64,000 nucleotides of DNA from Hormiphora californensis (taxonomy: Eukaryota; Animalia; Ctenophora): contig CM035360.1 of the NCBI GenBank assembly GCA_020137815.1, positions 6,572,001 through 6,636,000 on the forward strand. The letters run 5' to 3'. The notes beneath the pieces were generated by a model. That model worked only from the letters and a program-made list of their open reading frames with translations, had not been told where the DNA came from and made no database searches. The translations under genes were made by a program, and so were the position numbers. Of the stretch, positions 4,188-64,000 are shown piece after piece (positions within the stretch are counted from its first letter, which is position 1; each line of letters begins with the position of its first letter).

Positions 4188-4923
4188 TTAATTCGAATTG
4201 TTTTTAATCATGTATAAAATGTTAATATCATTCCTGTCGCTGAAACGTTTTGGGCTAGTGCCACGGTGACCCCTTAGACTGATCACAAGTGTCCTCAGGA
4301 GGCAGAATGATAATCGTTGCCTAATGTACCGGATAGAGTCGGGATAGGATTGTTTCGTTTTATCGGAAAGTTTAGAAGCAAGCTTCTTATAGAACTTGTC
4401 TGCTTCATCGCCCATAATTCCTGATGTCGAGAAGACAACCGGTGGGCGGTGTGAAGGAACTTTTTTCGACCTGCAAGACACGTTCACCATATGCTCGCTT
4501 CTTCTCATCCTCGTGTTTCTTGAGAGCCTTGGTAATAGGAAGAGATTGATTGGTGGGGGCTCGAGAGTTAAAGACGCGGAAATCAAGGAATAGCTTTGCC
4601 ATAGGAGACCAGAGGTCACGTGCTGAGACATCTAATCGAGCCTCTTCGGTGGTGATGGCGGAACGGTATTTGAACTCCTCTCCAGTTAGTGGAAGAAGGT
4701 GAGGTTCGATCACAACATCCCCACACCCAGCCTCAGCTAAGAGGTTCGCAGTGAGATCAAGCATCTGATTGTGTCTAAGGTTGACATAACCTCCACGAGA
4801 GCAGCTTAGACTGTGTTCGATCGAGTTTAGTTTGCCACATGCACAGTGGTTGGGGAATTCGTGGAGAGGAAGGTCATATCTCAGAGACAAGACATGGTGT
4901 TTTTCGAACTTTCGTGTTGGCAT
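4188..4923 (-). mobile_element. 5'-truncated CRE-clade-like non-LTR retrotransposon (CCHC finger + restriction-like endonuclease C-terminus), frameshifted
   Basis: CACG...H...C..GG...RHN, then EP...ARLDV...DFRV...EKKRAY...FTP.VFSTSG.MG...RLSF.LLR, split over ORFs 4405-4923 and 4188-4631. Confidence 0.8.
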
Positions 4924-4938
4924 ACGTTGCAGGCCCCT

Positions 4939-5300
4939 AGGGATCCCTAAAAAAGTTCAGTATTTACACAGAGTTTACACAGTCTTTACTCAGTCGTTAC
5001 ACCCAGAGCGCCCGCGCCGCTCTGGGTGTAACGACTGCGTCTTTCGCACTCGATTTGCAGCGTTTTCGGAAACTTTTTTCGCCGCAGCGCTCAATTTTAT
5101 CAATTGTGCAGCACACAATCCAATATTTTCTTGGAAAAAGCCACTGTGCGCAGCACGCGCCGCTCTGGGTGTAACGACTGAGTAAAGACTGTGTAAACTC
5201 TGTGTAAATACTGAACTTTTTTAGGGATCCCTCTTATAATATAATATTAATATAATATAATATATATATATATAATATAATATTAATATAATATAATATC
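4939..5300. mobile_element. Palindromic non-autonomous element (~72-bp inverted arms) with an AT-rich terminal array; MITE or Helentron/HINE-like
   Basis: AGGGATCCCTAAAAAAGTTCAG...CCCAGAGCG (4939-5009) is the reverse complement of 5161-5232. A third partial arm lies at 5018-5037 and a (TAATA)-type array at 5235-5299. Confidence 0.75.
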
Positions 5301-23447: not shown

Positions 23448-36328
<12,881 letters not shown>

Positions 36329-36404
36329 GATGCTGTGATGCGGTTGGTGGGGATGAGACTGGGAGTTCTCTCTGATTGTACAATGCACAGGAGAGCTACA
36401 AAAT

Positions 36405-36475
36405 GCTATTGGCTAAATACAACACCACCGAGAGCTCACAGAGAGCACGCCAGTAGCGCTAGAACGTCACGTGAC
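36405..36475 (-). promoter_or_regulatory. CCAAT box and E-box upstream of NF-YA
   Basis: AGCCAATAG on the - strand (~36406-36414) and GTCACGTGAC (~36466-36475), followed by a CpG-rich stretch. Function is inferred. Confidence 0.4.
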
Positions 36476-42843: not shown

Positions 42844-45800
42844 ATGTCTTCCTCTTCGTACCACATCACCAACTTACTGGAGAAGGTAAGTAGAATAGTT
42901 GGACAAATGTCTTATCAATTTCCTACTTTCCAAAAGTTTGCAGTTATTTTCAATACCTCTAAATCCCTTCCAGATGAACGAGGCTGACAAGGATTACCGG
43001 TACATGGCCCTAACTGATCTCATGACTGAGCTGCAAAAGGAAAGTCTCAGTCTTGATCCTGACAGCGAAGAAAAGGTGCAATTGACACACGGATACTGAT
43101 TTGTTAGGCTTTAACCCTCCGTTGCAATATCTATATTTGAGAGAGGATCGATAAACTCATACTGATTTGTTTATAGCTTACATTTGTTGGAGTGCTCACC
43201 ATCCCCTCCTTCTCAGATCTGTCAGCGTCTGTTAAAACTACTGGGAGATAAGAATAGTGAGGTGCAGAACCTGGCAGTGAAGTGTCTGGGTCCCCTTGTG
43301 GGGAAAGTGAAGGGTAACAAGGTTGAGAATATTGTTGATGTCCTTGGAGGAAATATGCTATCTGAAAATGAGAAACTCAGGAGCATCTCTACCATGGGTG
43401 ATTAATTGTAACTTTTCCCCTGTCACGTTTTATCTGACCTATCGATTCAGTCAATTGTGTATCATTTTGATAACCTTTCAGGCCTAATGATGGTGATAAG
43501 TGAACTACACCAGTCCTCTCTGGCTGCCCCTGTTAGCAGGAGAATATGCAACAAACTAACCACCGCTCTAGCATACCCAAAACTCGAGGTACATTTCTTG
43601 TATAGAAGTCGTAAAACTTTGAATAATCTTCATATTCAATTGTTAGATTCCAACGGGGCACAAAACTATATTGGTACCTCCTAACACCCCCCCCCCCCCC
43701 CCCCCGTAGAAATAGTAAAGGTGAAGGCCCTTGCAAACATAGAAGGTAATGGGAGGGCAGATCAAATAGCAAAACAAGCGACTGCAAACAGAAAAACACC
43801 CAGATGCACTGGGATAAACAAAGAGCCAAATACGGCACAAGAAAGCTGAAACAACAACACAAGACGGAATAATCGCTGAACTAAAGACAAAAAAGTACTC
43901 TGAGTTCACTACAACGATTATCGGGAAGATTATTAAAGAAAACACAAAACTAACAATCAAAACAGGAAACAATGAGAGGTCTGACACTAGCCATATCGGG
44001 CCAGAACAACCTGGCCTGGGAAGTGCCCTCTCCACAGCAGACCCTTCCATAAAACCCAACTGTGAGTTATGCGGGGCAAGAGAAAACTCACAACACAAAC
44101 TACTAAAACTGTCCTGACCTTGACCACCTCAGACCACACAAGAGTACCAAAACATCAAGAAAACATATATATATACAATGAAGTCGAGCACCAGAACTAA
44201 GGAAACTCACCAATGTAGTCACCAAATCCGGTCTATTCAAATAAAATATAACGCTACCACCAAAACGACTCTATACCAATGGTAGTTTAAAAGTGCATAC
44301 TGGCAAAGTCCTGATCTCATCAGGTAGAGTCTGTTGAAACCATCACGCAAAGCAATCCGCAACTAGCAAAGCGCAATACAAACCAAGTCACTAGCCTTTG
44401 GACTGGCCCCCCACAGCTAGATTGGCAAAACAGAAAGAACAGCGCCACCTGGGTCGACTCGATCATAGCTGCTATGACGACTCGATGGACCGAACCCTAC
44501 TACTGTACCCCGATCAGAGGTACACGCCTCAAACAGGCAGGTGGTAGTGCACAAATGGTGCCTCATCGTGGTGAAGATGAACGCGCACTATCGTTCGGCG
44601 ATTTAACCTATTCTGGGGAAACCCAGTACCGTAAGACTGGTACAGTAGTACTAGTGTGCGCCCGCTGTTGGTGGTGACCTTCATGCTCTTTATCGAAACA
44701 GTTCTCGTCTGTCGACTCGTGTCTTCCAATGGAAGGGCACTACTAGGGGGGCGCCGGGGAAACCCGGTGCTACCTTAGTGGGGCCGGACCTGGGGATCGA
44801 GCACGGCGCTCTGGGCAGCCATGTGTGTTGGTGACCTGAGGAGAGAACTGTGAAATCTAGGGAACGCTGCTCCCCAACGACAGCAAGTGGGTGGAAGTAC
44901 GGGAGGTACACGACACACACACCCCCCCCCCCTGTTTTACCAGGTCCAGATCTAGTTACATATATTCCATTTTACCACCCTGCTACCTCCTCACACAGGT
45001 ACAGATCCAGTTGGAGTGTCTGGACATTATGAGTGAGGTGCTGCACAAGTTTGGATCTCTTGTAGCTACCCAACATCCCCGTGTCCAGGAGTCTCTCCTT
45101 CCCCTTCTGTCTAATAGCAAGGCTGCCGTCAGGAAGAGGACTAGTGTTGCAATCGGTATATAGGGGGAACACTTGGTTACGAAATAACCCCTTCACACGC
45201 TGGCAAGGGAGGGGTAACTTCGTTACCAAGGGAACACTAACTCATGATACAATCATGTGCCTGCACCAGCTCTGAGATTTGCCTCACAGTGAAATATATT
45301 GCCAATTATACCTCCCAATAAAGCTACACTGTTTAATATTACCCCCCCACTCTCTCCCCTCCTCTTCCCTCCCTCTCCCCCCCCCCCCTTTCCTCCCTTC
45401 TCTCTCCTACCCCCTCCTCTCTCCCTCCCACCTGGGTATAAATTGGTACAGAACATGGTCCCCCTCCCCACTCTCTCCCCTCTTTTCTCCCCTCCTCTCT
45501 CCCCTCCCCTACCCCCTCTTTCTCCTCTTCTGACCCATCCCCTCTCTCTCCCAGGGTATTTGGTACAAAACGTGGTCCCCCTCCCCCACTCTCTCCCCTC
45601 CTCTCTCCCCTCCCCTGTCTCCTCCCCTGTCTCCTCCCCTGGCCCCTCTCTCTCCCCTCCTCTCTCCCCTCCCTCCTCCCCCTCCCCTCTCTCTCTCCTC
45701 TTCTGACCCCTCCCTCTCTCCCAGGGTATTTGGTACAGAACGTGGTCCCCCTCCCCACTCTCTCCCCTCCTCTCCTCCTCCTCCCCTCCCTCCCCTCCTC

Positions 45801-48800
45801 TCTCCCCTCCTCTCTCCCCTCCCCTCTCCCCTCCTCTCTCCCCTCCTCTCTCCCCTCCTCTCTCCCCTCCTCTCTCCCCTCCTCTCTCCCCTCCTCTCTC
45901 CCCTCCTCTCCCCTCCTCTCTCCCCTCCCCTCTTCCCCTCCCCCTACCCCCTCTCTCTTCCTTTCTGACCCCTCCCCTCCTCCCCTCCTCTCTCCCCTCC
46001 CCTCCCCTCCCTCTCTCCCTCCCTCCCCCTCCTCTCTCCCCTCCTCTCTCCCCTCCTCTTCCTCCCTCCTTCTCTCCCTCCTCTCTCCCTCCTCTCTCCC
46101 CTCCTCTCTCCCCTCTCCTCTCTCCCTCCTCTCTCCCCTCCTCTCTCCCCTCCTCTCTCCCCTCCTCTCTCCTCCCTCCTCTCCCCTCCTCTCTCCCCTC
46201 CTCTCTCCCCTCCTCTCTCCCCTCCTCTCTCCCCTCCTCTCTCCCCTCCTCTCTCCCCTCCTCTCTCCCCTCCTCTCTCCCCAGATTTTGTTGCTGACAA
46301 GCGGAGCTGCACCCATTCTCATGTTACCTCCGTGCAGCAAAAACCTCCGTTAAAACTGCAGATAGTCGCGTGGTCCAGCAAGCGTACCCCAGAGCAGATC
46401 CCCTTTTCGGAACCGCAGCTTAGAAGAGTCCATCAGGGATACCCTCACCTTATGAGGGGATCACGCAACTGCCACCAACCTGCTCCCATCAACTCCGGGT
46501 GCCCCTCCCCAGCAAACCAATCCCATAATGCACCTCCCCATCGGGAGGACTCCATGGCGCCCCTCCTCCGCAATTCAACCCCATGGCGCCCCTACCCAGC
46601 AGGTCAAACCCACCAAGCCCCCTCCCCAGCCAGTAAACCCCACAGCTGCATCTCCCGATTGGGACGACTCCATGGCGCCCCCTACCCAACAATTAAACCC
46701 ATGGCGCCCCCTCCCAAACAACTCAACCCCCATGGCACCCCTACCCAGCAGTTCAAACCCACCATGCCCCCTCTCAACAGTTAACAACATAGCGCCCCCC
46801 CTCAGCAGTTCAACACCATGGCGCCCCTACGCCAGCAGTTCATCCCCACGGTACCTCCTCCTCAACAGTTCACCCACGGTACCCCCCTCCTCAACTGGAC
46901 CTATCACACGGTGCCCTTCAGCAGACCTGCCCAACGGCACCCACAGCGGTACAATACCACATTTCCCCTCCTCAACTGAACTGCCCCTTGCACCACCTCC
47001 CAGAGTATACCACGGTGCCTTACCCCCCACAGTTCATACCACAGTGCCCCCGCCCCATCAATACAGCCCTATGATACCTCCTCCCCAGCAGTACTGCAAC
47101 CCCAAACAGTACGACGCCATGGTACCTCCTCCTCAACTGTACAGCACCATGGTACCCTCCCAACCTGCTTGTTACCCACTTCCGACTTCGGTCCAGCCAG
47201 GGGAAATGACAAACATATCATCAGGTCCTAGCAATTCCGAGGACGTCCTCCCTTCTTCCAAACACCATCAATGTTCGGTCTAAACCCCAACCAACCCTAT
47301 TCATCTTACTATTGTTAAATGCTGGGACTGGAGGCTTGAACACGGCTGCAGGCAAGCAAAAATGAATGGAAGATGGAAGCGCTTCGTATTGATGGTAGAG
47401 GACGAGGCGGCATCCAATCACTCCATTCCCTTCATTCTTGTCTCCGAATCGTGGTTCAAGTCCTACAACAGAGGGTCCTCTGTCGCTATTCCGGGATACT
47501 CTCTTACAGGGCAGGACCGTGACAGAAGGATCGGTGGCGGCGTTGCCCTCTTGCCCATGAAAACCTCCCGGCTACATCCACCTTACAGTTTGACAATTCT
47601 GTTTGTCAGGGAGTAATTTGCTATTTCCAAACTATCAAATGGTGTGTGGCTGTCTTCTACAGGCCTCCTAGTGCTACTCTGCAGGAGTACCGAACTAATA
47701 GATTTTGCTCGGAGCTCCTTAGCTGACCTCCAGATGATTCGACCATCGTTTTTGGAGGTGACCTTAATTTCCCTGAAATCGACTGGGATTCTCTCTCACT
47801 AAATTTCAACAATCGGGGAAATCAGGCGCTGCTAGTATTCTGTTTGAGCTCATGTCAGAGTTCTTCCTGACCCAGTGGATTGACGGCGACTAGAGGTAAC
47901 AACATTCTAGACCTACTCTTGACTAATCGCCCCACGCTAGCGACTAGAATATCAGCTACCGACACTCGGATGTCTGATCAACGGTTGGTTGATGTGCTCT
48001 CTCAGGGTCTCCGTCACTATCAGACAGGGAACACCAGTCTCCCCCCATCATTGATTCCGAGCTCTAGATTTTAATCGTGGTGACTTAGACAAACTCAAGA
48101 AACCAATCTCGACTTTGACGGGCTGGACTTCAATCGTCCACGTCACCTGAATCCTTCCCGAACCTTCACCAGAGCACTCCTTCAGATCTGCCAAGATCAC
48201 CTTCCTCGCAGACGTCTACATTGGCAGACCTAAAGTGCTCAATGGTATTCGCCGGAGAAAACGACGCGTCAAAGCAAAGATAGCTGCTCTCATGTCCGTC
48301 CCTACTTCCAACCCAGCTGCTCTCGTTCAGCCCAGAGAAAAAACTCGTTGCCCTAGAGGAGGAAATGGCCCGGCCAATCGTGAACAAAAATTGAGTCTCG
48401 TGAACAGAAGGTGATCGGAAACTTAAAATCAAATCCCAAAGTTTTCTTTAATTACGCTAAATCACTTAACCGGCTCGATTCATCCATCAAGCTGCTCTTT
48501 GACCCTGATGGCTCTGCAGTCACTGACCCTGTAGCTATGGCAGACCTCCTCCAGTCTAAATTCTCTTCCTCCTTCAGTGATCCTAAAGCTGAAGGCCTTC
48601 AGTGGACTGCCCCGGAAATAGTACCTCAGTTCCCTTTCCCCGACATGTTACAGACTGACATTCATGCCGATATCATAACTGTCCTGAAAGACCTGAAACC
48701 CAGTTCGGATCTGGCCCCTGATGGTATACCTGCTCTAATACTAAAAAACTGCTGTGTTGAACTCGCTACCCCCCTATCAATAATTTGGAAAAACGTCACT

Positions 48801-51800
48801 TGAAATTAGAACAGTCCCTGTGTTCTACAAACGGGCAACTATAGTACTCTGCACAAGAAGGGTCCCACATCTGACCCTGGAAACTATCGGCCTATTTCCT
48901 TGACGTCACATGTTGTCAAATGCTTTGAAAGGGTCGTCAGGAAGCATTTTGTTGACTATGTGGAGAATAACAACCTGCTTTCCCCTAACCAGCACGGTTT
49001 CCGTAGTGGGAAGAGTTGTCTGACACAACTGCTGGACCATCTAGGTGACGTTATAGATGGTCTTATAGAAGGTGTAGCTACAGACACCATTTACCTGGAC
49101 TATCAAAAAGCTTTTGATTCCATTGACCATAACCTTCTACTGAAGAAACTCCATGCTTATGGATTCCCACCATTAATGTTGACTGGATATCATCATTCCT
49201 TTCTGGTCGAACGCAAACTGTTACTGTTCAAGGAGCTAGTTCAAGACCTATTACTATTCATCAGACGGTGTCCCCCAAGGGACCGTTCTGGCCCCTATTC
49301 TTTTCATCCTCTTTGTGAACGACCTGGATTTGGCGTATTCCATTCAAAGGTTGGTCGCTTTGCTGACGATACCCGACTTAGCAAGAGGATCAGTTGCCCG
49401 CAGGATGTCCTGGATCTTCAGGAGGACCTCGATGCTACTTTAACATGGTCCTCTTTCAACAACATGAAACTACACCCGAATAAATTCGATCTACTCATCT
49501 CAGAGCCCTTCAATGAAAATCGGTCACTCCTTCGTCATCTCCCTTTCATTGACAATTTTAGGAAGTACGTCCTCCCTGATGATGGCCTGTTTAGAGGAGA
49601 AGGAATTTGTCAAGGACCTGGGTTTCACTGTTCAATCGGCCTTTCTGGTTCTCAGCATATATCCAATCTGTAGCCAGGGCAAGAAGATGGCAAGCTGGGC
49701 TCTTAGTGTTTTCCGGGCCAGGGATAAGACAACTAGTTACCCTTTACAAAGCCCTCGTCAGAAGCCACTTAGAATATGTGTGTCCTCTCTGGGATCCTTA
49801 CACCCTTGCAGACATTAGGACTCTTGAAAGTGTTCAGCGCTCCTTCGTTGCCAAAATTGAGTCAGCTGGCACCGACTACCTTGGTATAATGTCTCTACAG
49901 AGACGCCGAGAGCGATACTCAATTATCCATTGCTGGAAGATTCTTCACGGCCTAGTCCTGGCTCCATAAAGTTCAATCCTACCTTCCAAGAGGCATCCGT
50001 GCGGTGTACCCCCTCCTCCTGATCGTAACATTCTACTAAACGCCTTCGTAGCTTTACGAAAACAGCTTCTCGGTGAAAGCCCCTAAGCTATTGAACACTC
50101 TACCTGCACGTGTTACATTAGCGTTCCTCTAACATCGTTCAAGACTGCACTCCAAGACACCTCGATACAATTCCTGATCGTCCACCTATCGATGGTTATA
50201 CTGCAGCAAACAATAATTCCTTACTTGATTGGTGGCGTACGGGTGGTTCTATGCAAAGGATGGCCTAGTGGATCTAGAGGATCTACTAAAACTCTCAAAG
50301 TAACCAAAGTAAGTAATCCTCTCTCCCCTCCTCTCTCCCCTCCTCTCTCCCCTCCTCTCTCCCTCTCTCTCCCCTCCTCTCTCCCCTCTCTCTCCCCTCC
50401 CTCTTCTCCCCTCCTCCTCTCTCCCCTCTCTCTCCCCCCTCTCTCCCTCCTCTCTCCCCTCCTCTCTCCCCTCCTCTCTCCCCCTCCTCTCTCCCCTCCT
50501 CTCTCCCCTCCTCTCTCCCTCCTCTCTCCCTCCTCTCTCCTCCTCCTCTCTCCCTCCTCTCTCCCTCTCCTTTCTCCCTCCCACTCTCCCCTCTCTCCCC
50601 CTCCTCTCTCCCCTCCTCTCTCCCCTCCCCTACCCCCTACCTCCTCTTCTGACCCATCCCCCTCTCTCCTCTTCTGACCCATTCCTCTCTCACAGGGTAT
50701 TTGGTACAAAACGTGGTGGCGTCACAGTTCGAAGAGTTGATTAAACACGTCATGGAGCACCTTTCTAATCCCAGCAAATACATTCAGAGTTACATCACCT
50801 GTATCAACGTTATCTGGTGAGTACAGGACGTTGTTATAAGGTATTTGTAGTTGACTTCTTATTTTCAGCGGGCGACACTTTTCAGTTCATTCTGTTTCCA
50901 GTTCTCGATCAACTTCAGTCACAACCAAAACTCATGTACATATTTCTTTTCAGTCACCACTAAGCTTCATGTACCTTTCAGTCGTCATGCAGGCCACAGA
51001 TTCGGTGAGAAGTTGAAGCTGATAGTCCCCAAGGTGGCAGTGTTTGCTACTAATGCTGGGGAGGATGATGATTTGAGGGAGTGTTCTATACAGGTCCTGG
51101 AGAGTTGTGTTTTGTGGTGCCCTGGGGAAATAACCGAGTTTACACCGCAGGTAACAAGAATATTATAATCCTAGCTATCCATTAGCTTAGGTAACAAGTA
51201 ATTTGTATGATTGTAGCGAGTATTAGTTTAGTCTTGAGTCTTGACTATTATTTACAAAAACTCTATAAAATATCTTCGTGTCAGTTCTAGTTAGTCAAAT
51301 AAAATTAATTCCAGTTCCTATTCACACTGCTGCAGTACTGTAATGTTTTCCTTTCTCCCTAGATAGTGGACATGTGCCTGGTATACCTTGGTTACGACCC
51401 CAACTACAACTATGATGAGGGAGGCGAGGAGGAGGAGGAGGATTAGATGAAGATGAAGACGAGGACGATTATACAGGTACATGATACTTTTCTTGAATTA
51501 GTCGTGGAAGTAGTTTTGCCAAATTCTTGCAATCTCTCTTGGCTGTATGTGCAGGTATGGTTATTTACAAATACTTGACTACTTCCCCACCATCAGATGA
51601 TGAGGATATGAGTTGGAAAGTTAGGAGGGCCTCAGCTAAATGTCTGGCAGGCTATCATCCAGGCGCGACCTGACCTGCTATCCGATCTCTACGAGAAGGT
51701 GTCACCTATCCTGATATCTCGATTCAAGGAGCGAGAACAGAGTGTGAGACTGGATGTGTTTGCGACTTATTCCTGTCTCCTGAAACAGACTGGAACTGCC

Positions 51801-54800
51801 TAAACAGTCCATTGTGGTGCCTGAAGATGAGATGGAACAAATTACGTGAGTAGAAATAGGTATATCTCGACTAGACTCTTATCACATGCAAATTAGAATT
51901 AGTACTTACAATCTAGAATCACATAATCTGATAGTATATTCATCACTATTAATTATTGTCACTCAAATCTCTCATATTAGACACTGTTGCAACACCCCCC
52001 CCCCCCCCCCAGGCCGGTGACACTACTGACGGGTCAAGTTGAGGCCATTGTTAGGGGTCTCCAGAAGCAGCTATACGACAAGCACGATAAGAGTAGGGAG
52101 AGTTGTTTTAGTCTCCTTGGTGACCTGGTAACGGTACTACCAGGGTGTTTAGCTCCTTATATGGATACAATCCTGCCTGCAATACACAAGTGTCTCAGGT
52201 TGGTTACCATGGTAATGTTCTGACAGTGTTTTTATAGGTTCTAAGCATCATGAATTCAAGTGTGAAACTGGGAGTTTAGGTTAATTTAATACAAATGATA
52301 GGTTATTACAAAGGTTTTTATTTCACCACAGCACACGGGGAGCTAGTTGTTACATCAAGATTAGCTCTCTTGGGTTCCTTAGTAAGCTAATAAAGTATCA
52401 CGATGCGGCCATCTTCACACCATACATCAAGGAAACTGTATCCTGCGTTATTGGTTCTGTACAGGACACTTTCTACAAGGTATTTACGAATACAGTTTGA
52501 CTTTTTTCGAATACAGTTTAACTTTTTTTTCGAAGTTTGTTTGTAACGATGACTTGTTCCCGCCACAATTCAAACTCTTTCATTTCCACAATCCAGGTGA
52601 TTTCAGAGGCACTGCTAGTGACAGAACAACTTGTATTTGTGATCCCTCACACGGGTGCAGCTCCTGATAGCCCCCTAGTAGCGGAGCTGTGTGTCGCTAT
52701 TTTCAATGCCACCCTGTACCGACTAAAGGAGGCTGACCTGGATCAGGAGGTTAAGGAGCGAGCCATCACGTGCATGTAAGTAGTGGAACGTGGTATACGT
52801 TAAACTGCAGTATGAATATTTAAATTTTTGTTGTCTATTTGATTTGGTTTCCTATACTATTCCTCTTGTACAGTATTGTTGAGTTACCCTGCATAGTGAA
52901 TAATGACTGGTATAACAACTGTTAGGTACTGCTGGTGTTGATAAGTAGATTATATAGCACAGATCATGTAGATAAGTGTGGGAGTTCCCACCTTCCATAA
53001 TTAGCCCATCATCTAGGCAGCAGCTGGACACGCATAACCACATAGTAACTCAGAGTTTATCATAGCAACGCGGCACGTGGCCCTATTTAGATCTGTTTTA
53101 TAATTGTCCCACAACTGACAACTATTTCCGCGTGTTTTGTGTGTGAGATCTTTACTTCTGCTTGAATAGTAGTGGACAAGTTGTTCTCTAGTCTTTTCTG
53201 TTTTGTATCTTTACAAACGTTGGCTCCAGGAAATGTTTACTAGCTCATGAAAAGTTTGATATATTTTCGCATCATCATGAAATAATTTCCAAATTATGGC
53301 TCAGAAAAGTCTCCGATGACTGGCCTGGAAAAATTTCCTCGTGGTTCTTTTGATGCAAAAAAACATAAGTTTGTAAATGAAGATGACCATTGCGTACCCA
53401 CCTGATTTATTATAGGAAAGATGGCAATTTTCAGTGAAGGTGGAACCTCATCCCCTGATTTCCTATTATTCCTGTTTTTCATCCTCGTGCCCTGTTTCTC
53501 CATCTCTCTGAACTGCCTCGTTATCCGGCACAACTACTGGAAACACCCCTCTATTTCCAGAACTCTCTACCTGATACTTGGAACCACTGACCTATTGGCA
53601 TGCCCCATCATATCATACACAATGGCAGCTGGTCTATGGCAACCAAAGGATCCAGATTGTGGCAAAGATGAGATGTCCAAGATTATTTGCGAAGATCAAT
53701 ACTATGCTTTTCGGATAGAAGACGACAATACATTTAATTTCACTTATTCTGTTATTATAGATATTCTAATTGTAGCCCCAATTTATACAACATCTATACT
53801 GGCAACGACTCGATATTTTCAGATCAAAAACCCCTTAACTATTATTCCCCAGACCCGTGTTTTAACAGTTTTAATAGTCTCAATGGTCGCAACGTGTGCC
53901 TTCATAGTTGCAGACATTGTATTATACTATACAGGTACTGGTGGTAAATTAAAATATATGGTTCTCTATCAAAGGACGTATATTGAAGACTCGGTTCTTT
54001 ATCGATATAGTGAAATACCCATGGTATTGGTAACTGGTGTAGGGATAGTTTTCACTATTCTAACTGCTATCCACCTGTTCCAGAGATACCTTAATCCAGT
54101 GGGAGGGGTTCAGCATTCTGCCACTGGTGCTACTCGAGTGCTCATTATGAACTTTTTATCTTTTGTGAATGTGATGTTTCTAGTGGTAGGTAGTATCTGG
54201 GGAAGTACTGATAGTTATGACCCTAGATCTCTGACTCAAGCTATATTTTATTATAATGCATGGGTTGTAATCCCAGCCCTGACCTCATTTGCTAATCCAA
54301 TTGTATATACTGCATTTTCAAAGAATGTACTATCTGTACAGAGAAGTTGAGTGTATAAAGAAGAAGAAAAACTCGTAAAATATTGCTTTTATTAATATAG
54401 AAGTTTAGTTCGCTAATCATGTTAAGTTAGTTGTAGTTGAATTTACATTGCTTTCCCTTTAATCTGGTGTTTATTTCGGAAACGTTTTCCAACCTAAAGT
54501 TCATTAGAGGGGTCTGCAATTAGATTCTATCGAGACACATCATTGTTTTGTCTCTACCTCTGCTGACCCCATACTTTTCAGGGGACATCTTCTGGCAAAC
54601 ATGGCCGATCTCCTACAGTCTCAACTCTCCATCGCACTACCTCTCTTCTTGGATCGGCTACGGAACGAAATAACCCGTCTCACAACTGTGAAGGCGCTCA
54701 ACGTTATCGCCAAGTAAAGTTACAGTTTCTTGTTCGGTGCGCGCGGACCATATCACTATGTGAAAAGTTTCCCTAAATTCATTGTTAGCATTATGCTCAC

Positions 54801-57800
54801 GCGGCTCATGGTTGCGCGTTACTGTCTGCACGGATTTGTGGGACAGATCTGTTTTGGTCGTCCAGGACCCCAGCCTATCAGATTTACTGAACTGGTATAC
54901 CTCCTTACAGATCTAACTCTGGGGTGAGTTTAAAGTTGATTATGGGTGAGGCGCTGCCTCTACTCGGAACCTTCCTAAGGAAAACTAATAGAGCACTGAA
55001 ACTGTCAACATTGGAATTGCTGGATAACCTAATTGTGAACTACAGTGAGTGTGTTTCTAGAGGGTTGTAATTTGAACAAAACTAATGAGTTGTCCATTCA
55101 CCCCTTTAATATTCCTCCTCTCCAACCCCTAAGGAAGACTCCCTGTAACACAACATCTCCCCTCCCTGACTCCCCTATGGCCCACTATAAAACTACACCC
55201 CCCAATCAGCACAAGACATAACCGTGTCAATGGTGAACGAACTGGTGGATGAACTGCCCCGTCTCATCAGTGAGTCAGACACACATGTCTCACAACTCGC
55301 CCTTCTACTCGTATCACGTCTATCCGAGACGATGCCCCACTGTACTGATAAGATACCTAATGGAGTCTTACCGGCCGCTCTGACTCTTGTGAGGAGTCCT
55401 CTTACTTCAGGGCAAGGCACTGCATGTTATGGCTGGGTTCTTTTGTAGTCTAACACGGTCAGGAAACCTCAGTGAGTATAACATGACTGTGGAACTTTTA
55501 GTTGCCGTATTGAATAGATTTTAGGGACAACTTATATTTTGTAGTGATTTGACAATCAGTTAATATCGTGATAATATTTCAGATTTACAGTTTGTCGAGC
55601 TGGTACAACATCTAACGAACCCAGTTTATAATCCTTCACCCGCTACACAGCCTGCTAACTCCCCTCTGGCTGTCCATAAACAAGCCTTCTACAGTACCTC
55701 ACATTGTGTTGCCGCTCTCGCCCTCACTTCTGCTAGTAGCACAGGTAGAAAGGGTTATAACTGGAATCGGGGAAGCATAGACTTGCTCAATAGTAAAATG
55801 CTTGTCTTGGTAACAGTCTGTATTTTATCGATGACTCTATTCCTCAGAATACCAATCAGTAATAACGAAGTTGATAGACAATTTAAAAAGTGCAGAAACA
55901 ACTGATAGTGTAAGGTTATTCGCTCTACTAACTATCGGGGGAATAGGAAAACACCGGTAAGTTCAAAACTTTCTCAAACTTTCGACATATTAATTTCGAC
56001 ACAAAATACAGTTATATTGCTTCGATAAGTGTATTGCTTCGTTGTGACATCATTTATAATAATTGTTCCCCAGTGATTTGAGTGAGAGGCAGGAGCTTCA
56101 GAGTGTAATAATGGGATCATTTAACAGCACGGCAGAGGATGTCAAATCAGCCGCATCATACGCCCTAGGTTTGTTATGTTCTAACCCTCCGGGCGGGGCA
56201 CGCGAAACAGAGTTTAGTTAAAACCCTAGGTAAAATTGTAGTAATAACTTCTAATTTCTGAACATTTGTGGTAACCTTTCAATGTGTATATCATTAGAAC
56301 TTACTACTTGTACCACCCTATTTCCACTTGTAGTGTTGCTAACAACTAGCACCTGACCCCATGTGTTCCCAGGTAACGTGTGTGTTGGTAATTTGAACCT
56401 GTACCTCCCCTCCATAATAACTGAAATCCAGGATAACCCTAAACGGCAATACCTTCTCCTCAACTCACTGAAGGAGATCATTACCAGCATGAGTGACAGG
56501 GAGGAATCAGTTTCTGTTTTAAAGGTATCGGCAACTACCCTTTCTTTGTCTGCCCAGATTTCCAAATGAAACATTTATACAGCGACAAGCAAAAGTTTCC
56601 ACCTCCCACACAAAACAAAATGTTGCTCACACCCCCCCCCCCCCCCTCAGAACTATGTACCAGAGATGTGGAATGTGCTGTTGAGGTACATGCAGGTATC
56701 TGAGGAGGGAAGTAGGAAGATTGTAGCGGCTTGTCTGGGAAAACTAATGTTAATCGATCATGGGACACTCTTACCTAAATTACTGGTAAATCATTGCAGG
56801 TCATATCTAGTCACCTTTAACCATCTCACCCACCAATCACCATTTGAAGAATACATTAAACGTGTGGCTATATTTACGCATAAATTTACACTTTCACAGA
56901 CCTACAACCCACTGGTCAGCCCTATAACAGAGCCCTACTAACTCCCTGTCTTTTAGGAATACACAACATCAGACCAGCCTTTTGTACGGAGCACAGTGGT
57001 AACTGCCATCAAGTACACTGTAACAGATACACCCCAACCAATCGACCCCCTTCTTAGGCAGTTCCTGGGGCAGTTCTTGTCCCTTCTCAAGGTATGGGTT
57101 GTTAATTGCCCTCTGTTTCACAACTCAAGGTGGATTTTCTGTCGCATAGAAATAGTCAAGTATTATAATTTTATCCCCCTTTTTCTCTCAGGATGAAGAT
57201 TTGAATGTTAGGCGGATGGCTCTGGTGACTCTAAACTGTACTGCCCACAATAAACCAGTCCTAATAAGGGATCATATGGATGAGATCCTGCCTAACCTTT
57301 ACAAAGAAACCACTATCAAGGTAATGCAGTAGTGTCCCTCTACTGTTTGTCAAACTACATGACTGTAACGTCGCGCCCGGTTCGGGAAGTGTCACATTAT
57401 TTATGGGCTGCCCATTATCATGATCATGGTTGTGTATTGTTGATTCTACTCCATTTGTTTTAGCTAAAAAGAGAAGTAGAGATGGGACCTTTTAAATATC
57501 CAGTAGATGACGCACTTGACAACAGAAAAGCTGCATTTGAATGTAAGTACCTTGATTCATGTTAGTACAGATCTGGACATTTGATTCATTGCGTGTGAGG
57601 TCGGAGTCACAAGAAATCGTTTTACATTTGTTTAATTTGAAATTCACTACAAAAGGGAGTGGCAGATAGAAATTGTATATGGGTGGTATAGAGATCCACC
57701 CCACCCATTCTATTTCTATCTGTAGAGATTTGTTCAAGGAGAGAGCGTTATAAAAGTTGAGTGTAGTAATGAAAAGAAAAAAAGAGAGCTTGGTTAGACA

Positions 57801-58158
57801 GAAAAGTTTCAACCCGAGATAAACAAAAAAACCCGTACGCAAAAAAACTGAATAAAAGTTCTAAACACACGCCCAAAAATAACGCAAAAATGTGTAAATG
57901 TCCGACACAAACCAATCAAAATTCGGTATCTTTGAGTAGAAATAAGATTCGATCAATCCGTCCTCCCACCTAAGTTAATATATAAATGTCCTCCCCCTGC
58001 CTCCAACCACGAGCACATGTCTTATCATAAAGTTCAGTATTATCCTCCTTCTTCCTGCAGGTATGTACACAGTGCTACAGAACTGTATAGACAGGGTGAA
58101 CATATTCCAGTTCCTCGACCACGTGGAAATTGGCCTCAAGGACGTCCCTGACATTAAG
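42844..58158 (+). CDS. CAND1: Cullin-associated NEDD8-dissociated protein 1 (TIP120), ~24 exons seen; C-terminal ~100 aa not found in the window
   Basis: [14 protein letters not shown]|[90 protein letters not shown]...[19 protein letters not shown]| ending on a GT donor. A few indels near 51.4-52.5 kb. Confidence 0.96.
43706..44921 (+). mobile_element. 5'-truncated, decayed I-group (R1/LOA/Tad1/I-like) LINE: RNase H end, CCHC finger, long 3' UTR, (AC)n tail
   Basis: [25 protein letters not shown] matches the RNase H ..H..I.GNE.AD.LAK motif; [12 protein letters not shown]...CP (one frameshift); flanked on both sides by ACA(C)n. Confidence 0.72.
45340..46281. repeat. Polypyrimidine (CTCCCCTCCTCT)n array with copies of the downstream CAND1 acceptor; continues at 50317-50690
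   Basis: Direct reading; the array is split by the LINE at 46284-50316. Confidence 0.9.
46284..50316 (+). mobile_element. Near full-length, frameshifted CR1/L2-group LINE (Pro-rich repetitive 5' region, APE endonuclease, RT)
   Basis: APE motifs [35 protein letters not shown]; RT motifs [41 protein letters not shown]; short tandem tail. Confidence 0.9.
53421..54350 (+). CDS. Intronless rhodopsin-class 7TM GPCR nested in CAND1 intron 52776-54581
   Basis: 309-aa ORF with seven hydrophobic segments, TM1 LN, TM2 LGTTDL, TRY in place of DRY, NPIVY. The flanking CAND1 exons join in phase (AT|G). Confidence 0.9.
   Translation: MAIFSEGGTSSPDFLLFLFFILVPCFSISLNCLVIRHNYWKHPSISRTLYLILGTTDLLACPIISYTMAAGLWQPKDPDCGKDEMSKIICEDQYYAFRIEDDNTFNFTYSVIIDILIVAPIYTTSILATTRYFQIKNPLTIIPQTRVLTVLIVSMVATCAFIVADIVLYYTGTGGKLKYMVLYQRTYIEDSVLYRYSEIPMVLVTGVGIVFTILTAIHLFQRYLNPVGGVQHSATGATRVLIMNFLSFVNVMFLVVGSIWGSTDSYDPRSLTQAIFYYNAWVVIPALTSFANPIVYTAFSKNVLSVQRS
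57297..57646 (-). CDS. Two candidate antisense exons (57646-57551, 57463-57297) giving an Ig-like peptide
   Basis: Canonical AG/GT ends, matching phase 1 join, no stops; KTISC...SCSLTNSRG. Not confirmed; see findings. Confidence 0.35.
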
Positions 58159-58403
58159 GTACGGGGGGTTTAGAGGGTTCACCAAGTCGGGGTACTCGGT
58201 GGGGGGGGGTTGCCCGGTATATCGGGGTGAAATACCGGGGATCATCAAGTTGTAAGGTTGAGAAGAGTTATGGAATATTTTTCAAGGGGTAGGCTGGTGG
58301 TGAAACTGTTACCTTTGATATCGTGTTGTCGTTTACTTCTGATAATTCTCTAGCTGCTGTCTTCTTTTCCATTTCTAATCCTCTCAGTCAATTCTTTCCC
58401 AAC

Positions 58404-61400
58404 TTATTCTGAAAAGCTTTCTACCCTCCTCCCGGTAGCCAAAAAAGTGATTTTTGGTTACTGAGAGGAAAGCTACCCAAAACTATCCAAATTTCAAAGC
58501 TCCAAAACATTTGCCCGTGTTTTGGAGATTTTACCCCCCCCCCCAACCCATTCCCAATACTTACTCCACCTATTTTGGTGTTGCAGTACTTACGTTCACC
58601 CACGATAGTCGCCAGATAGTTGTACTGAACATTGCCCCACACCCTGACTTCTGATACTTGAAATGTGACTCCTGATCTTGACACCTTTATAAACAAGACA
58701 TTAGCCTGGTTGCCTTGAAATACTGCTGTTTCTTCCTCTGCTTGGCTCCAGGCTGTCGCTGATAATCCTGAAATACAATTGTTATAAATTTCATTACCCG
58801 AGGTTTTATAGGCTCTCGTTATGTTCTAAGTTCTAACCCTCCTTTACAACATTTGGGGCGCTGTGAGAGAGGGTCGAGCGAGGCACGTAAACACCTCATT
58901 ATGCCCTTACCTTCGATAGTTCCCCACAGTGTAACTGTACCCTCCACACCAATTACATCAACAGTAGCACCGAGAATATTCATATTACCTCTCAACCTAG
59001 GATAAAGTTCAGTTGCTCTTCTGTTTCACAGTATGACCGGGACATATAATCAATATGTACTCATTATACATGAGCAGGGACATGGTTGTTTTGTTCAAAA
59101 CCATTTTATTTGGGGCGGGGAGAGAGGATCGAACAAGGCAGGGAGATAACAATAGATAGAGGTAACAAGGACGTTAACGGCAGTAACCGACTGTTTGACA
59201 TACCCGTTAGTGATTGATATCATTCTCACAGTAGTAACATATCGTAACTGCAGTTGTACCCAATGCTCTACGTCCATGTGGGTATCAAAGTCCAAATCAG
59301 TAAGTTTAGTGATAGGACCATTGTTGGTTGAGGTGTTACCAGCGATGATAGTAGCCTCACTTGCCATACACAATCCAGGCAGCGGGCCCTCTAACTCTGA
59401 AAGGCAGATTAGTGAGAATTTGTTTACCAAAATGTTTGTTAAATTCTTACCTTTTCCATAAGCGAACACCTCAGCGAAATTCATTTCAATTGGATCATTA
59501 ACGGATGTGGGTTTTCTGTCGATTAGCTTGAAACCAGTTCCTATCATCCCGTGGCAGAAAGTGTGGTGATCCGAGGCTATAGTCTCTACAGGAAACACGA
59601 AATTAATCAGCATCTTAAAAATAATGACTAAAAGTTGTCAATCCCAAATAAAATGACCCATAAAGATGATTTTGACTTACCGATGGTTCCACACAGGTAA
59701 ATCTGCTGCTGGTTCATAGTGAGACTCACTTCAGTACCCATGAGCCGCTCCTGTGTGTACTTTTCTATTTATAATAGAAATCTTCGTGACAGACATGCAC
59801 TTTCCAAACTCAAACTTTATCCAGGGAATGCCGGTGGTTCCAGAGTTGTAGAATGTTGCATCGTTTCTGTCTATGCTCATCGAGGGGTCGTATTCTGCTG
59901 AATTAGAATATACACTCTTTGAGTGAGCGTACTGTATCTTTATTTCAAGTCCTGTGGGATAGGGAGAATGGTGTAGGGATTGCAATAATCAAAATGCTCG
60001 AATAGAGTTGCAAAGTTCATAATGATTCTTGTGTTTAAACCCGATTCATCTTCAGGTTTCTAAACCTACCTTCGTCGTTGGTCTTATTTTCTCCGAAGAT
60101 CTTAATTTCTGAGATCCGCACATCTGCTTCAGCCCCTTGTTCAGAGTCGTAAGTAACCCTCACTGCTGTGCTTGGTAGAGATCTGGAGCAATAGAACGGT
60201 ATCGTTGCCTCTTCCTCGTAGTAGTAGGGTCTATGCAGTACACTTTCAAGGGATGCTGAGAGGTGTATTATAAGTGTTAATAGGTGTTCGAATATTCTGG
60301 CTACTATGTGCCATAAATTGCTCAAACGAAGCCTCACAGAGCGCGGTGTGAGCTACACAATGTGACATTACTAATCCATATCCGCTGTTAACTCACTTGT
60401 CACAGTTCCACAGGTCTGCTCAAAATTCCCACTCTTTATCAAAACCTCAATACCAACAGTCCTATCTTTGTAGTACACTTCATGCTCAGTTCCTAGTAAC
60501 ACAGATGAGACATGGAAGTGACCCTGGAAGGTGAACTCAAGCCAGGTATCCGTATTCGGGGTGATTAGTAGAAAAGTGTTGAAGTCGCCATCTCTGGCCT
60601 GGAATGTGTTGCTGGTACTTGTAGATAGGTCAAGTTCGTGGACTGGGTGGGCCGCTGCAGCTGAGAAGGGGAGACAGTTATTGCAGCAGTATTTTGTATG
60701 TGAGTTTTACAATCTAGCTTCTAAATTGGTACAGGCCATGATCAAGAAACAAAGGGGTGTGATCTCTACTTGTTTGTCAAAATAACTATTTCCCTGGTTT
60801 TGCACCTGTTTCTCCGAATATCAGCAACTCAGATATAAGTATTGTATGAATGGAGTCCAGGGAAATCCTGACCACATTTCCAGTAGCACCGTTACTACAT
60901 GTTACTTGACTACTCAGATCCAGGTAGAATTGTGTTCCTGTCTTGCTCGTAGGTCCATTCTGTCGACCCTCCATAGTCTCATCTAGTTAGGGATATGATA
61001 TTGTGGTTTTCTAAGAAAACCCAAAAAGGCAAGAAATGTATCTTAATGCCTTATTGTTAATTACTTACTCCATGATTTAAAGTTACCGCATGCCACTGGA
61101 CTTGATTCTGTCAGACCAGACTGAGTCACAACATCAACTCCTACCTTCTTATTTATACCATCCAGCAAATATTTTTCTGAAACATTTCAAAAGTTAGACA
61201 ATCAGATTTTAAACGGAACTTCTAGTTCTGGGTTTCATCAAGGGTTACGAAATAACCCCTCCAGACCTTCGTGCACTGGCAAGGGAGGGGTAACTTCGTT
61301 ACCAAGGCTCATAGTTACTTTTTGTAGTCAGTGAGTTGATAAGGACGACCCGGTAAATAGTGTAGGTACTGTGAAGGTAAATGTATATCATGGATCCCTC

Positions 61401-63920
61401 TCCCTTGAGCCTCAGGCTGGTTGTTAGTTGTCCATCGATCCCCGCTGTTACACGCTCTACCGCGCTGTACTGGCGATCAGATTTATATCGTGCTAGCATC
61501 GGAGCTATTCTTGTCACTGGAAACATTGTTAAGTATTAAAAACAGGTAAAACAGGTGCTAGATTTAGCTCGAATTAATTGTTAAACTAACCGTTTGTCTC
61601 TCCAATGTTCACTGTCAAAGAATTGATACGACGGTTGTTTCCTAAAGTAATCTGAAACCGATCAACAAGCCCACTGCAGTGGAATGTCCTAGAATCTTTT
61701 GTGCATTTCCCTGTCTGCCATTCCCCTTCAATCAGGGTCTTTATAGTTGGAGGTGGCGGGGTTATTGTTACTTCCACTCCATCAACAGGACCCTCCAGAT
61801 AGAACGTAACTGTCGAATCAGTGAAATACGCAAAGGTGCCAGTCGTATCATCAAAAGCGTACTGCATCGAACTTCCTGGTTGAAGTGCTCCTTCAGTATG
61901 CAACTATCGCTGATCTCTCTGAAAGTAAAATTCATATTTCTCTGGAAGCTAGATATTTGGAATTACTGAGTGGTACTAATTAGAAGATATTAAAATATAT
62001 GGTCTCTTTGAATATTGTAGTGTACAGTTATGGTTATACACTCACTTGTTACATGTATAACGGTTTTGAGTGTTCTCTCCTCCACACTTGTTACTTTACA
62101 GTTGTACTCCGCTAGATCCGCTGGCTCTGTGATCTCCATCACCAGAGTCCAATCATTTTCACGCTGTTCAATGATGACATCTTGTCGAACACCAGCACTG
62201 TCCTCCCAGTATAATAGGTCATCAGGGTAGTTGAAGGAAGGAAAGTTGTTGAGGGAACAATGTAGGAAGACAGGCCAGTCCTTGAAGCATTCAACAGATT
62301 CAGCAGCAGTTACACCTGGAGTAGTACACAGGGTTGTGGAAGAACAATTAACAATAAGATTAAATTGTTACGCGGTGAAACAGGATCGAGCAAGGCAAAA
62401 GAATAAAATCAGTACTACATATTTGTCGGAATATGAACTTACTTGCAACAGAAATAGATTTAGCACTAGTATGTCCCTGTGGAGTATTTCCAGGCAAAAC
62501 ATAGCAATTAAAATGTAGATCCGTATCTTTTTTCCTTGATTGTCGTAAGACAAACTATTCTGGAAGTTGTCCTTAGTACCGGGATCTTCAGTTACGTTGT
62601 TCCAAGTCACTTCATTCCCTGATTGTATAGTAACCCAGACTTGGAATGGTTGAAAGAAGTGGCCGGTAACCGTACATGTTACAGTCAGGGTGTCCTGTGC
62701 CAGGAAGAACCGGGGAGTGGGCGATATGGAGACTGTCAAATCTGAAAATATAATAGGTTTTAGGAAGAGGACTGCCGGTTCGTATTGACAAATGTACTAT
62801 GACCGTTTTATCTGAAAACACATGAGCTGTCATTAGCACTGACCATAAATGGAAACACGAGATGTTTTACGAAGAGGAGTATCATTTGCTCCTGTGACAG
62901 TTGACCGTGCTTCACAGATAAACTCCATTTGTTTAACCACAGAAACATCCAGTATCCTCAGAGTAGAATATGATTCAGTGCTCAGAATCACAGCTTCTGA
63001 TGGTGAGACAGCAGCTCCTCCAGGCATAGTCCAGCTGAAGGTGATGCCATAGTGGTGGGGTTCAGCAGAGCAGTTTAGTGTTTTTGTATTTTCATTAGTT
63101 TCATTTAGCTTGATGCTTCGGTCACTCAGGGTTATGTCTGAAACCATTTGATGTGTTATTGAAGAGCTACAATTAGCATAAATCAAATTGATACAATTAT
63201 TAGTTTTGCATATTTTCCTACCGAATATGTATAGCGTCATAACTTTTTGTTGAGGTTCAGGAGTATCTATTTACGTTAGTTGTGAATCCTTGTTTACAAG
63301 TATATTCCGTGGTGACAGTAGGTGTATTTGTAATACTCAAAGGTTGAAGTCTTGGATCTTATATAAAGCTTCTCTGTTATCCCAGTCTGGATCTGGTTCC
63401 CATTTGAGTACCATTTCTAGGGTAACAATATCAGGAATCGTATAATTGAACAAGGAACATGTCAGGATTGTCTGTGCAGCTCCCTTTCCTATCTCCTTAT
63501 CTCCCGTGGTCCGTATCCATGCTGAAAGTAGGTTCATGTAAGTATGACTAATGAGAAAAGTCTGGCTACAATTTAAACATGTGTTTTTGATGTTTTAGGG
63601 CGGGGTTCAAGTTGAACCACATTGAAGCTAACTGTACCTTTTGTTTTGGTATTTATTTGATACTCTCCAGGGTCCTGTATCGTAGCTGTGTTTTGTGGGG
63701 TCACCACGCATCTGTATGAAGCTGTTTCTGCTAGTTGAAATCCATACAACGTACAGGTCTTTACACCAGTGGAAGAATCAACTGTTGTCTGGTTCAAAGA
63801 CTCTGAACTACCACCCTTCTGCCATGATACTGTTGTATTGGTGCTTATACCGGACACAACGCACGTTGCTGTGGTTGAAGTAGCATACAATTCAACACCT
63901 GAAGTAGTTAGTGATAACTG
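58404..63920 (-). CDS. Large extracellular protein, partial: several Ig-like domains then repeated F5/8C/fucolectin-like domains; starts beyond the right edge
   Basis: Ig exons ATCVVSG..VSW...YRCVV, LNCSA...FSW...FICEA, VTCTVTG..VTW, LYW..AEYNCKV; lectin-like exons SIDRNDATFYNS...PWIKFEFG...ISIINR...TCGTI...EVFAYG. The 3' end is uncertain (splice gives GEQ* at 58404). Confidence 0.75.
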
Positions 63921-64000
63921 GTACGTTCTAACCCTTCTTTACATTTATTTCATGGGCGGGGCGCGCGAAACACAGTCTAGCTAGGCAAGGTAGATAACTG

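What the first reader, a model, noticed from the sequence alone, without database searches (positions are those of the whole stretch)
57297..57800. Possible zipper genes: antisense exons fill CAND1 introns and share an AG|CT boundary
Seen: minus exon A 57646-57551 (TTTTGTAG|, 96 nt, phase 1-1, donor AAG|GTACTT 8 bp from the CAND1 donor). Its 87-nt intron is essentially the CAND1 exon 57464-57542, whose purine-rich LKREVE codons supply CTCTACTTCTCTTTTTAG. Exon B starts at 57463, exactly where the CAND1 intron ends, because TTTAG|CTAAA is an acceptor on both strands. It stays open through the whole 143-nt intron to AAG|GTTAGG (57297). The peptide ..KTISCDSD...[22 protein letters not shown] resembles Ig B- and F-strand motifs but lacks the C-strand Trp. 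An Ig-rich antisense gene lies 0.8 kb away, and another strong minus acceptor with CTAAC is at 57720. Chance is not excluded.
Basis: partly seen in the sequence, partly recalled or inferred. Interest (0 to 1): 0.72.

Follow-up and report, generated by a model that had tools for sequence, protein, structure and literature searches.

The report
Nested comb-jelly gene, unproven zipper exons
In a comb-jelly-type genome a large antibody-fold and lectin-domain gene runs backwards inside an intron of the CAND1 gene, an ordinary arrangement for these animals, and the two extra backwards "exons" proposed to interlock with CAND1 are likely splice-site look-alikes largely created by CAND1's own sequence, though a roughly one-in-four chance remains that they are real protein-coding exons.

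Summary
The geometry is exactly as described, and transcript contigs confirm both CAND1 introns. The genome is Pleurobrachia-like. A 16-exon minus-strand Ig + F5/8-domain gene model sits in the next CAND1 intron. Its last confident donor (58594) is phase 1, like exon A, and is 947 nt away.

For real exons: the four sites are strong, form the only such chain in 7.9 kb of antisense sequence, and arise in 8-11 of 3000 shuffles.

Against:
- CAND1's amino acids alone give the antisense AG in 3914 of 5000 synonymous resamplings.
- Introns open on the antisense strand are as common as chance, 7 of 34 against 5.8 expected.
- Exon A scores below all 45 true exons in a codon model.
- The Ig resemblance fails (312 of 1000 shuffles, weak controls).
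- No convincing exon follows B.

Odds: by-product beside an ordinary nested gene 0.55, interleaved coding exons 0.27, non-coding spliced read-through 0.18. No stranded RNA or orthologous intron DNA was available. My look-ups found no earlier scan note of this layout on other DNA.

The parts
57192..57320 (+). CAND1 exon (human residues about 1017-1059); its codons also spell the antisense donor AAG|GTTAGG at 57297
   Evidence: contig joints; PDB match to human CAND1, E 6e-13
57321..57463 (+). CAND1 intron, 143 nt, GT..AG
   Evidence: skipped in contigs of X1 and X3
57464..57542 (+). CAND1 exon LKREVEMG...; its first codons read as an antisense pyrimidine tract plus AG
57543..58060 (+). CAND1 intron, 518 nt; holds candidate exon A and the 57719 acceptor on the minus strand
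   Evidence: skipped in contigs of X2 and X3
58061..58158 (+). last CAND1 exon found in the window (TIP120 domain); the next exon was not found in the window
   Evidence: Pfam TIP120 E 7e-7; 62-nt continuation of a matching contig lies on nothing in 57100-63800; motif search negative
57551..57646 (-). candidate exon A (unproven): acceptor 6.3 bits (rank 21 of 534), donor 6.0 bits (rank 17 of 500), phase 1-1; intron-like codon score
57464..57550 (-). candidate 87-nt antisense intron coinciding with the CAND1 exon; holds the one in-frame stop between A and B
57297..57463 (-). candidate exon B (unproven): acceptor 10.4 bits (rank 2 of 534), donor 8.5 bits (rank 1 of 500); open for 55 codons, or 66 to the stop at 57263-57261
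57719..57797 (-). alternative antisense acceptor (first base 57719, 5.4 bits) with a distant CTAAC and an AG-free pyrimidine stretch; in phase 1 it reads 32 codons to a stop
58594..63898 (-). antisense gene model, 16 exons, 15 of 16 entered in phase 1: five Ig-like exons, then F5/8-type (fucolectin-like) repeats; lies in the CAND1 intron that begins at 58159; 5' end outside the window
   Evidence: model by hand from the sequence; Pfam Ig_3/I-set and F5_F8_type_C, all below curated cut-offs; P. bachei gene model P0008 85-92% identical to two exons
58594..58767 (-). last confident exon of the antisense gene, ending at a phase-1 donor C|GTAAGT
   Evidence: relative P0001, 74% identical over query residues 16-57; beyond the donor its match switches frame and back
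58386..58460 (-). rival terminal exon inside the same CAND1 intron (acceptor 5.2 bits, 133-nt intron, 25-codon tail); also unproven and intron-like in codon score
54658..54912 (-). second antisense ORF (C, 84 aa) filling CAND1 intron 54714-54910; coding-like score but weak in-frame acceptor (1.3 bits)

Best explanation
A spliced Ig + F5/8-domain gene lies antisense inside a CAND1 intron and likely ends there, and the two further "exons" A and B are likely unselected splice-site look-alikes. Shown: the CAND1 exon-intron structure; the antisense gene's domains and its P. bachei counterpart; that CAND1's Leu-Lys-Arg-Glu-Val-Glu codons, read backwards, give a pyrimidine tract ending in AG; that CAND1's donor GTAAGTAC contains a backwards GT. 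Inferred: the antisense transcript leaves its last confident donor (58594) for a nearby acceptor such as 58460 or 58408, ends with a short unconstrained tail and stops before CAND1 exon 58158. The open frame through the 143-nt intron would then be a 1-in-10 accident, and exon A's acceptor a further one.
For: Synonymous resampling of CAND1 codons gives the antisense AG in 3914 of 5000 trials, an acceptor at least as good as the real one in 1324, and a donor at least as good in 542. With CAND1 exons fixed, the four sites without any frame demand are reached in 1337 of 3000 shuffles and a B-like phase-1 exon in 334 of 3000. Introns open in an antisense frame: 7 of 34 against 5.8 expected. Codon model, leave-one-out, 45 true exons: A scores below 45 of 45 at orders 2 and 3; A+B is above only 1 of 45; 8 and 19 of 68 stop-free intron windows reach A+B's score. 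After B's phase-0 donor none of 21 acceptors of 3 bits or more down to 54300 gives, by my reading, a convincing exon. A window-wide scan gave 29 chains of 30 bits or more; by eye two (33.7 and 31.8 bits) are false chains antisense to a purine-rich SR-type gene and two more are unassigned. The gene's 15 modelled introns are 54-183 nt, whereas reaching A needs 947 nt and skips several acceptors of similar score. Nested genes are common in a relative: 2357 in Hormiphora (PMC8527503, section 38 read).
Against: The complete phase-1 chain is rare under both nulls (11 and 8 of 3000; 9 of 1500) and is the only chain family in 7.9 kb antisense to CAND1. B's acceptor is the best one downstream of the open donor, and its frame and phase fit. 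The rival terminal exon at 58460 scores worse than A in the codon model, and its frame is not kept in relative P0001, so no 3' end is actually shown. In length-matched windows 4 of 63 true 31-codon windows score as low as A. No AATAAA lies on the minus strand in 55500-58600, only variants such as AGTAAA at 58337. CAND1 is two residues shorter than human and has Lys for Ile exactly at the shared boundary, which makes the antisense tract more pyrimidine-rich; I could not test whether other ctenophores share this.
Confidence: 0.55

Rival explanations
1. Interleaved coding genes. The antisense gene would splice from 58594 across CAND1 exon 58061-58158 to exon A (optional, symmetric phase 1-1) and exon B, so that one gene's intron is the other's exon and AG|CT serves as acceptor on both strands. 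It would add about 88-98 extracellular residues, possibly continuing to ORF C.
For: ORF C fills a second CAND1 intron in phase 0 with a coding-like score (1 of 68 intron windows reach it at order 2, 7 of 68 at order 3); A+B versus C global alignment 18 of 5000 shuffles. The assembly has one-base errors (4 of 16 exons of this gene; CAND1 at about 55402), so a 169-nt exon 57719-57551 with one extra base cannot be excluded.
Against: Codon statistics, especially for A. No homologue for B or extended A among longer proteins (weak tests). No domain support: Ig profile 312 of 1000; F5/8 profile 22 of 1000 in one build but 253 of 2000 in a second, whose own positive controls mostly failed. C's in-frame acceptor is 1.3 bits and lies 6 nt behind a 9.1-bit acceptor that gives Ser-stop. 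The A+B/C likeness is not significant locally (446 of 5000) or for intron-only parts (2981 of 5000), and both tails are in-register antisense to similar CAND1 codons. A G>A variant at 57290 in contigs of X1 and X2 would put a stop two codons past B's donor, against B as a conserved terminal exon.
Confidence: 0.27
2. Non-coding spliced read-through. The antisense gene's coding part would end near 58594-58400 or in the 57719 exon, but a long 3' UTR or read-through RNA would run into CAND1 and be spliced at these strong cryptic sites, without selection on the peptide.
For: The sites score within the range of true sites. The 57719 acceptor has a distant CTAAC and an AG-free pyrimidine stretch and gives a 32-codon phase-1 tail. 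No canonical poly(A) signal lies near the nested 3' end. Exon/intron overlaps are a common class of sense-antisense pair in mammals (PMC1868933, passages).
Against: It leaves the open frame and phase match as accidents. A branch-point-like YTRAY 12-50 nt upstream is found for 14 of 26 modelled acceptors but for none of 57719, 57646 and 57463 (background 25%).
Confidence: 0.18

Closest known systems
Nested intronic genes of the ctenophore Hormiphora californensis (PMC8527503; passages and section 38 read)
   Same: A multi-exon gene inside one intron of a host gene, in the same family Pleurobrachiidae; 2357 such genes are reported. A second nested, intron-free 7TM-like ORF sits in another CAND1 intron here.
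   Different: That paper counts transcripts within one intron (15% overlap allowed). The passages I read do not describe genes whose exons alternate with host exons (0 hits for 'interleaved').
Interleaved genes of metazoans (named as 'fairly common' in PMC2291194 and drawn as a case in PMC5534336; passages only)
   Same: Exons of one gene in several introns of another, as in the rival reading.
   Different: Neither passage describes base-exact complementarity (intron of one = exon of the other) or one AG|CT used as acceptor by both strands. My searches for that listed no such paper; I judged most hits by title and abstract start only.
Human TNXB/CYP21A2 (PMC2119596; abstract and reference list only)
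   Same: A large modular extracellular-protein gene overlapping another gene on the opposite strand.
   Different: Both transcripts are experimentally shown there. The text I could see does not give the exon-level layout of the overlap.
Mammalian cis sense-antisense pairs with exon/intron overlap (PMC1868933; passages)
   Same: Overlap across exon-intron borders is frequent (37% of embedded and 48% of tail-tail human pairs).
   Different: Those pairs rest on cDNA evidence; here none exists for A or B.

Membership tests
CAND1/TIP120 (host gene) | TIP120 C-terminal domain and similarity to human CAND1 | tested here: met
   Pfam TIP120 29.7 bits, cut-off 25.9; PDB CAND1 E 6e-13 and 3e-6
Nested intronic gene (antisense Ig/F5-8 gene) | modelled exons lie between two host exons | tested here: met
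   16 exons in 58594-63898; CAND1 continuation not found in the window
Nested intronic gene (antisense Ig/F5-8 gene) | 3' end of the transcript stays within that intron | tested here: inconclusive
   candidate acceptors 58460 and 58408 exist but are weak and not coding-like
Nested intronic gene (antisense Ig/F5-8 gene) | 5' end of the transcript lies within the same intron | not testable with these tools
   the window ends at 64000 and no genome is held
Interleaved (zipper) gene pair | spliced antisense transcript with exons on both sides of a host exon | not testable with these tools
   only unstranded contigs of four runs were available
Interleaved (zipper) gene pair | splice sites and frame better than chance | tested here: inconclusive
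   chain 8-11 of 3000, but single parts common
Interleaved (zipper) gene pair | coding-type base composition of the antisense exons | tested here: not met
   A below 45 of 45 true exons; A+B above only 1 of 45; B intermediate at order 2
Interleaved (zipper) gene pair | codon-like conservation of the host introns in relatives | not testable with these tools
   no orthologous intron DNA retrieved (one search gave one unrelated bacterial locus)
Immunoglobulin domain (A+B peptide) | C-strand Trp about 12-15 residues after the B-strand Cys (recalled rule; seen in this gene's own Ig exons) | tested here: not met
   A+B has no Trp
Immunoglobulin domain (A+B peptide) | profile match to Ig domains | tested here: inconclusive
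   312 of 1000 shuffles reach it; left-out true Ig exons gave 10, 35 and 26 of 500; Pfam found nothing for A or B separately
F5/8 type C / fucolectin-like repeat (A+B peptide) | profile match to this gene's repeats | tested here: inconclusive
   22 of 1000 not reproduced: 253 of 2000, and 3 of 4 positive controls failed; hhalign probability 0.4%

The most novel reading that the evidence does not exclude
Two protein-coding genes are zipped base to base: the antisense gene's 87-nt intron is a CAND1 exon, its exon B is a CAND1 intron, one palindromic AG|CT is the 3' splice site for both strands, and 24 nt are dual-coding. The design may recur at CAND1 intron 54714-54910 (AGATCT boundary, coding-like ORF C), and CAND1's two-residue shortening and Ile-to-Lys change at the boundary may be the footprint of the second gene.
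Probability: 0.25. Interest if true: 0.65.

Novelty: new member of a known kind. Interest (0 to 1): 0.3.

Why it matters
On the best reading this is one more nested gene in a lineage full of them, plus a caution: purine-rich conserved codons at an exon start and GTAAGTAC donors manufacture convincing antisense splice sites. If the zipper reading were true, it would show that a host's coding sequence can be reused as another gene's intron and splice signals. That gives a direct route for nested genes to grow new exons across a host exon, and a single locus where double constraint on splice sites can be measured between Pleurobrachia species.

Tried and rejected
RNA: no run on record as RNA was listed. 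Contigs of X1-X4 laid at 85% and 80% cover CAND1 exons only. They give no cover of A, of B's intronic part or of the antisense gene's exons beyond short repeat-like pieces (26 and 7 pieces not shown). This is uninformative, not evidence.

Genome: none held. Related loci in metagenome contigs: 597 stretches matched a pattern, 1 was confirmed, and it is a bacterial chance hit; the scan stopped at 27 of 64 parts.

Homologue searches: B, 17 candidates and 0 hits; extended A, 0 candidates. Both covered only proteins of about 98-2000 aa. The representative search with the last confident exon gave 6 hits, 1 true relative and 5 WD40 chance hits.

ESM Atlas: no usable hit for B or C. Single-sequence AlphaFold: B pLDDT 47, C 41; no positive control was run, so these say nothing, and no fold search was done. 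The joined A+B peptide could not be sent to Pfam, the Atlas or folding. Pfam found nothing for A or B but also missed 5 of 8 exons of the neighbouring gene. PDB sequence search with B gave 0 hits.

My own idea that A+B is a fifth F5/8 repeat did not survive a rebuilt profile (one training row there was read in the wrong frame after its break). A CUB-like pattern seen by eye was not testable. One wrongly framed training exon was corrected with the same outcome. A repeat origin of A or B: no copy elsewhere in the window.

Earlier scan notes: none near, in relatives, or holding all search words. Supplements of the papers were not opened; the Hormiphora annotation files could bear on how often genes interleave.

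Full report
Observation. Every coordinate in the finding is right. On the minus strand, A (57646-57551) and B (57463-57297) join into an open 87-codon frame. The 87-nt gap between them is CAND1 exon 57464-57542 plus 8 nt, and holds the only stop in a frame that runs from 57860 to 57264. CAND1 is confirmed by Pfam TIP120 and by human CAND1 chains. Contigs from three seawater runs skip ten CAND1 introns, including 57321-57463 and 57543-58060. Two details differ from the finding: the CTAAC is 74-78 nt upstream of the 57719 acceptor, and the nearest antisense exons are F5/8-type, not Ig.

Setting. A P. bachei gene model (P0008) is 92% and 85% identical to two exons of the antisense gene, so the genome is Pleurobrachia or close to it (inference; an earlier scan note says the same). 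CAND1 starts near 42846. Its last exon in the window is 58061-58158: a matching contig continues for 62 nt that lie nowhere in 57100-63800, and short motifs for the next exon were not found in any frame. My hand-built model of the antisense gene has 16 exons from 63898 to 58594, with five Ig-like exons followed by F5/8-type repeats, 15 of 16 entered in phase 1, and introns of 54-183 nt. None of its introns is RNA-confirmed. Four of the 16 exons carry an apparent one-base shift, and CAND1 has one at about 55402 against a contig, so the assembly likely has indel errors. The last confident exon has a 74%-identical relative (P0001) whose match switches frame and back beyond the donor, consistent with intron there. 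The gene therefore needs one more exon, entered in phase 1.

Evidence that A and B are real. With weight matrices from 26 introns (10 RNA-supported, 16 site pairs from my model), the four sites rank 21 and 2 of 534 acceptors and 17 and 1 of 500 donors on 7.9 kb of strand antisense to CAND1. They form the only two-exon chain family there, at 31.3 bits, against 23-42 for true pairs that were part of the training set. A phase-1 chain this good appears in 11 of 3000 intron shuffles and 8 of 3000 when CAND1 codons are also resampled; in any phase 37 and 14 of 3000. B's acceptor is the best of 13 above 1.5 bits downstream of the open donor. CAND1 lacks two residues relative to human and has Lys for Ile at this very boundary. 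A second CAND1 intron (54714-54910) is also open in antisense and coding-like.

Evidence that they are by-products. CAND1's amino acids alone produce the antisense AG in 3914 of 5000 resamplings, an equally good acceptor in 1324, and an equally good donor in 542. Two of 39 modelled exons start with CT, and 4 of 34 donors have AC at intron positions 7-8, which gives a backwards GT. B's frame is open in 510 of 5000 shuffles, and introns open in an antisense frame number 7 of 34 against 5.8 expected. In a codon-position model trained on 45 coding pieces and 35 non-coding pieces with leave-one-out, A falls below all 45 true exons at both orders and A+B exceeds only one; 8 and 19 of 68 stop-free intron windows reach A+B, and 4 of 63 true 31-codon windows are as low as A. 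After B's phase-0 donor there is no convincing next exon; ORF C needs a 1.3-bit acceptor 6 nt behind a 9.1-bit one. The Ig resemblance is not supported (312 of 1000), and an F5/8 resemblance (22 of 1000) did not repeat (253 of 2000); both tests have little power.

How it most likely works. CAND1 is transcribed on the plus strand and spliced as shown. The Ig/F5-8 gene is likely transcribed from beyond 64000 on the minus strand inside one long CAND1 intron, encodes a modular extracellular protein (inferred from its domains), and likely ends shortly after 58594. The 58460 acceptor would give a typical 133-nt intron and a 25-codon tail, but that tail is not coding-like and its frame is not kept in P0001, so the true end is not shown. 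A and B then need no function. My rough weighting is a judgement, not a computed posterior: chain rarity favours real exons about a hundredfold, codon statistics cut that five- to twentyfold, and the prior for a nested gene crossing a host exon by an intron five times longer than any other in the gene is low. That gives 0.55 by-product, 0.27 coding interleave and 0.18 non-coding spliced read-through.

Comparison with what is known. Nested genes are abundant in Hormiphora (2357; PMC8527503, passages and section 38). Interleaved genes are named as fairly common in metazoans (PMC2291194, passages; PMC5534336, passages). Exon/intron antisense overlaps are frequent in mammals (PMC1868933, passages), and TNXB/CYP21 is a shown overlap of a modular extracellular gene (PMC2119596, abstract). 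Ten searches listed no paper on a base-exact exon/intron swap with one shared AG|CT. The library covers open-licence papers only and matches exact words, so this is weak. Ig strand rules and fucolectin motifs used by eye are recalled; the only call touching the latter is a weak match of the repeat alignment to lectin 1K12 (E 0.51).

Verdict. The geometry is real, the neighbouring nested gene is real and ordinary, and the zipper is unproven and somewhat less likely than not. Interest 0.3. One stranded RNA data set or the P. bachei locus would settle it.

Noticed in passing
window 54658-54912 (-), CAND1 intron 54714-54910: Intron with 47% GC and the highest CpG density of 32 introns, fully open on the minus strand (84-aa ORF) with a coding-like score; its possible acceptor overlaps CAND1's in the palindrome AGATCT. 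Could be a second zipper exon or a mobile-element fragment.
   Followed up: partly
window 53406-54350 (+): Intron-free 314-codon ORF with hydrophobic segments and receptor-like motifs by eye (7TM-like; no Pfam hit), nested in the same direction inside CAND1 intron 52776-54581.
   Followed up: partly
window 57320/57464 (+): CAND1 has two residues fewer than human at this splice junction and Lys for Ile; the joint is confirmed by contigs. An acceptor that slid 6 nt into old Glu-Leu codons would by itself create AG|CT (speculation).
   Followed up: partly
window 58593 and 58564 (-): The donor GTAAGT of the last confident exon is repeated 29 nt downstream, and relative P0001 has an 11-residue insertion there that looks like a further copy; resembles the splice-junction repeats noted elsewhere in this genome.
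   Followed up: partly
window 63521-63275, 62741-62443, 61918-61591, 59951-59681 (-); about 55402 and 51660 (+): Apparent one-base frameshifts in four exons of the antisense gene and two of CAND1; the one at 55402 is absent from a contig, pointing to assembly errors rather than pseudogenes.
   Followed up: partly
window 56180, 58827-58848, 63922-63990; 45190-45231 and 61266-61307: Short intronic repeats (TTCTAACCCT family; a 42-nt element in two introns) that also match unrelated contigs; likely small mobile elements.
   Followed up: no
window 57780-57960: A-rich (+) / T-rich (-) stretch with several CpG and a CCAAT-like word inside CAND1 intron 57543-58060; might be a promoter or a trans-splice leader region feeding the 57719 acceptor.
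   Followed up: no
window 48384-49969 (+), 9650-11047 (+), 4191-4956 (-): Reverse-transcriptase-like retroelement ORFs by eye, one inside a CAND1 intron, with frameshifts.
   Followed up: no
window 41755 (-) and 42846 (+); 34795-36412 (-); 1111-3216 (-): CAND1 starts head to head with an SR-rich gene about 1.1 kb away; an NF-YA-like gene and a Src-like kinase gene lie further upstream (by eye from translations).
   Followed up: no
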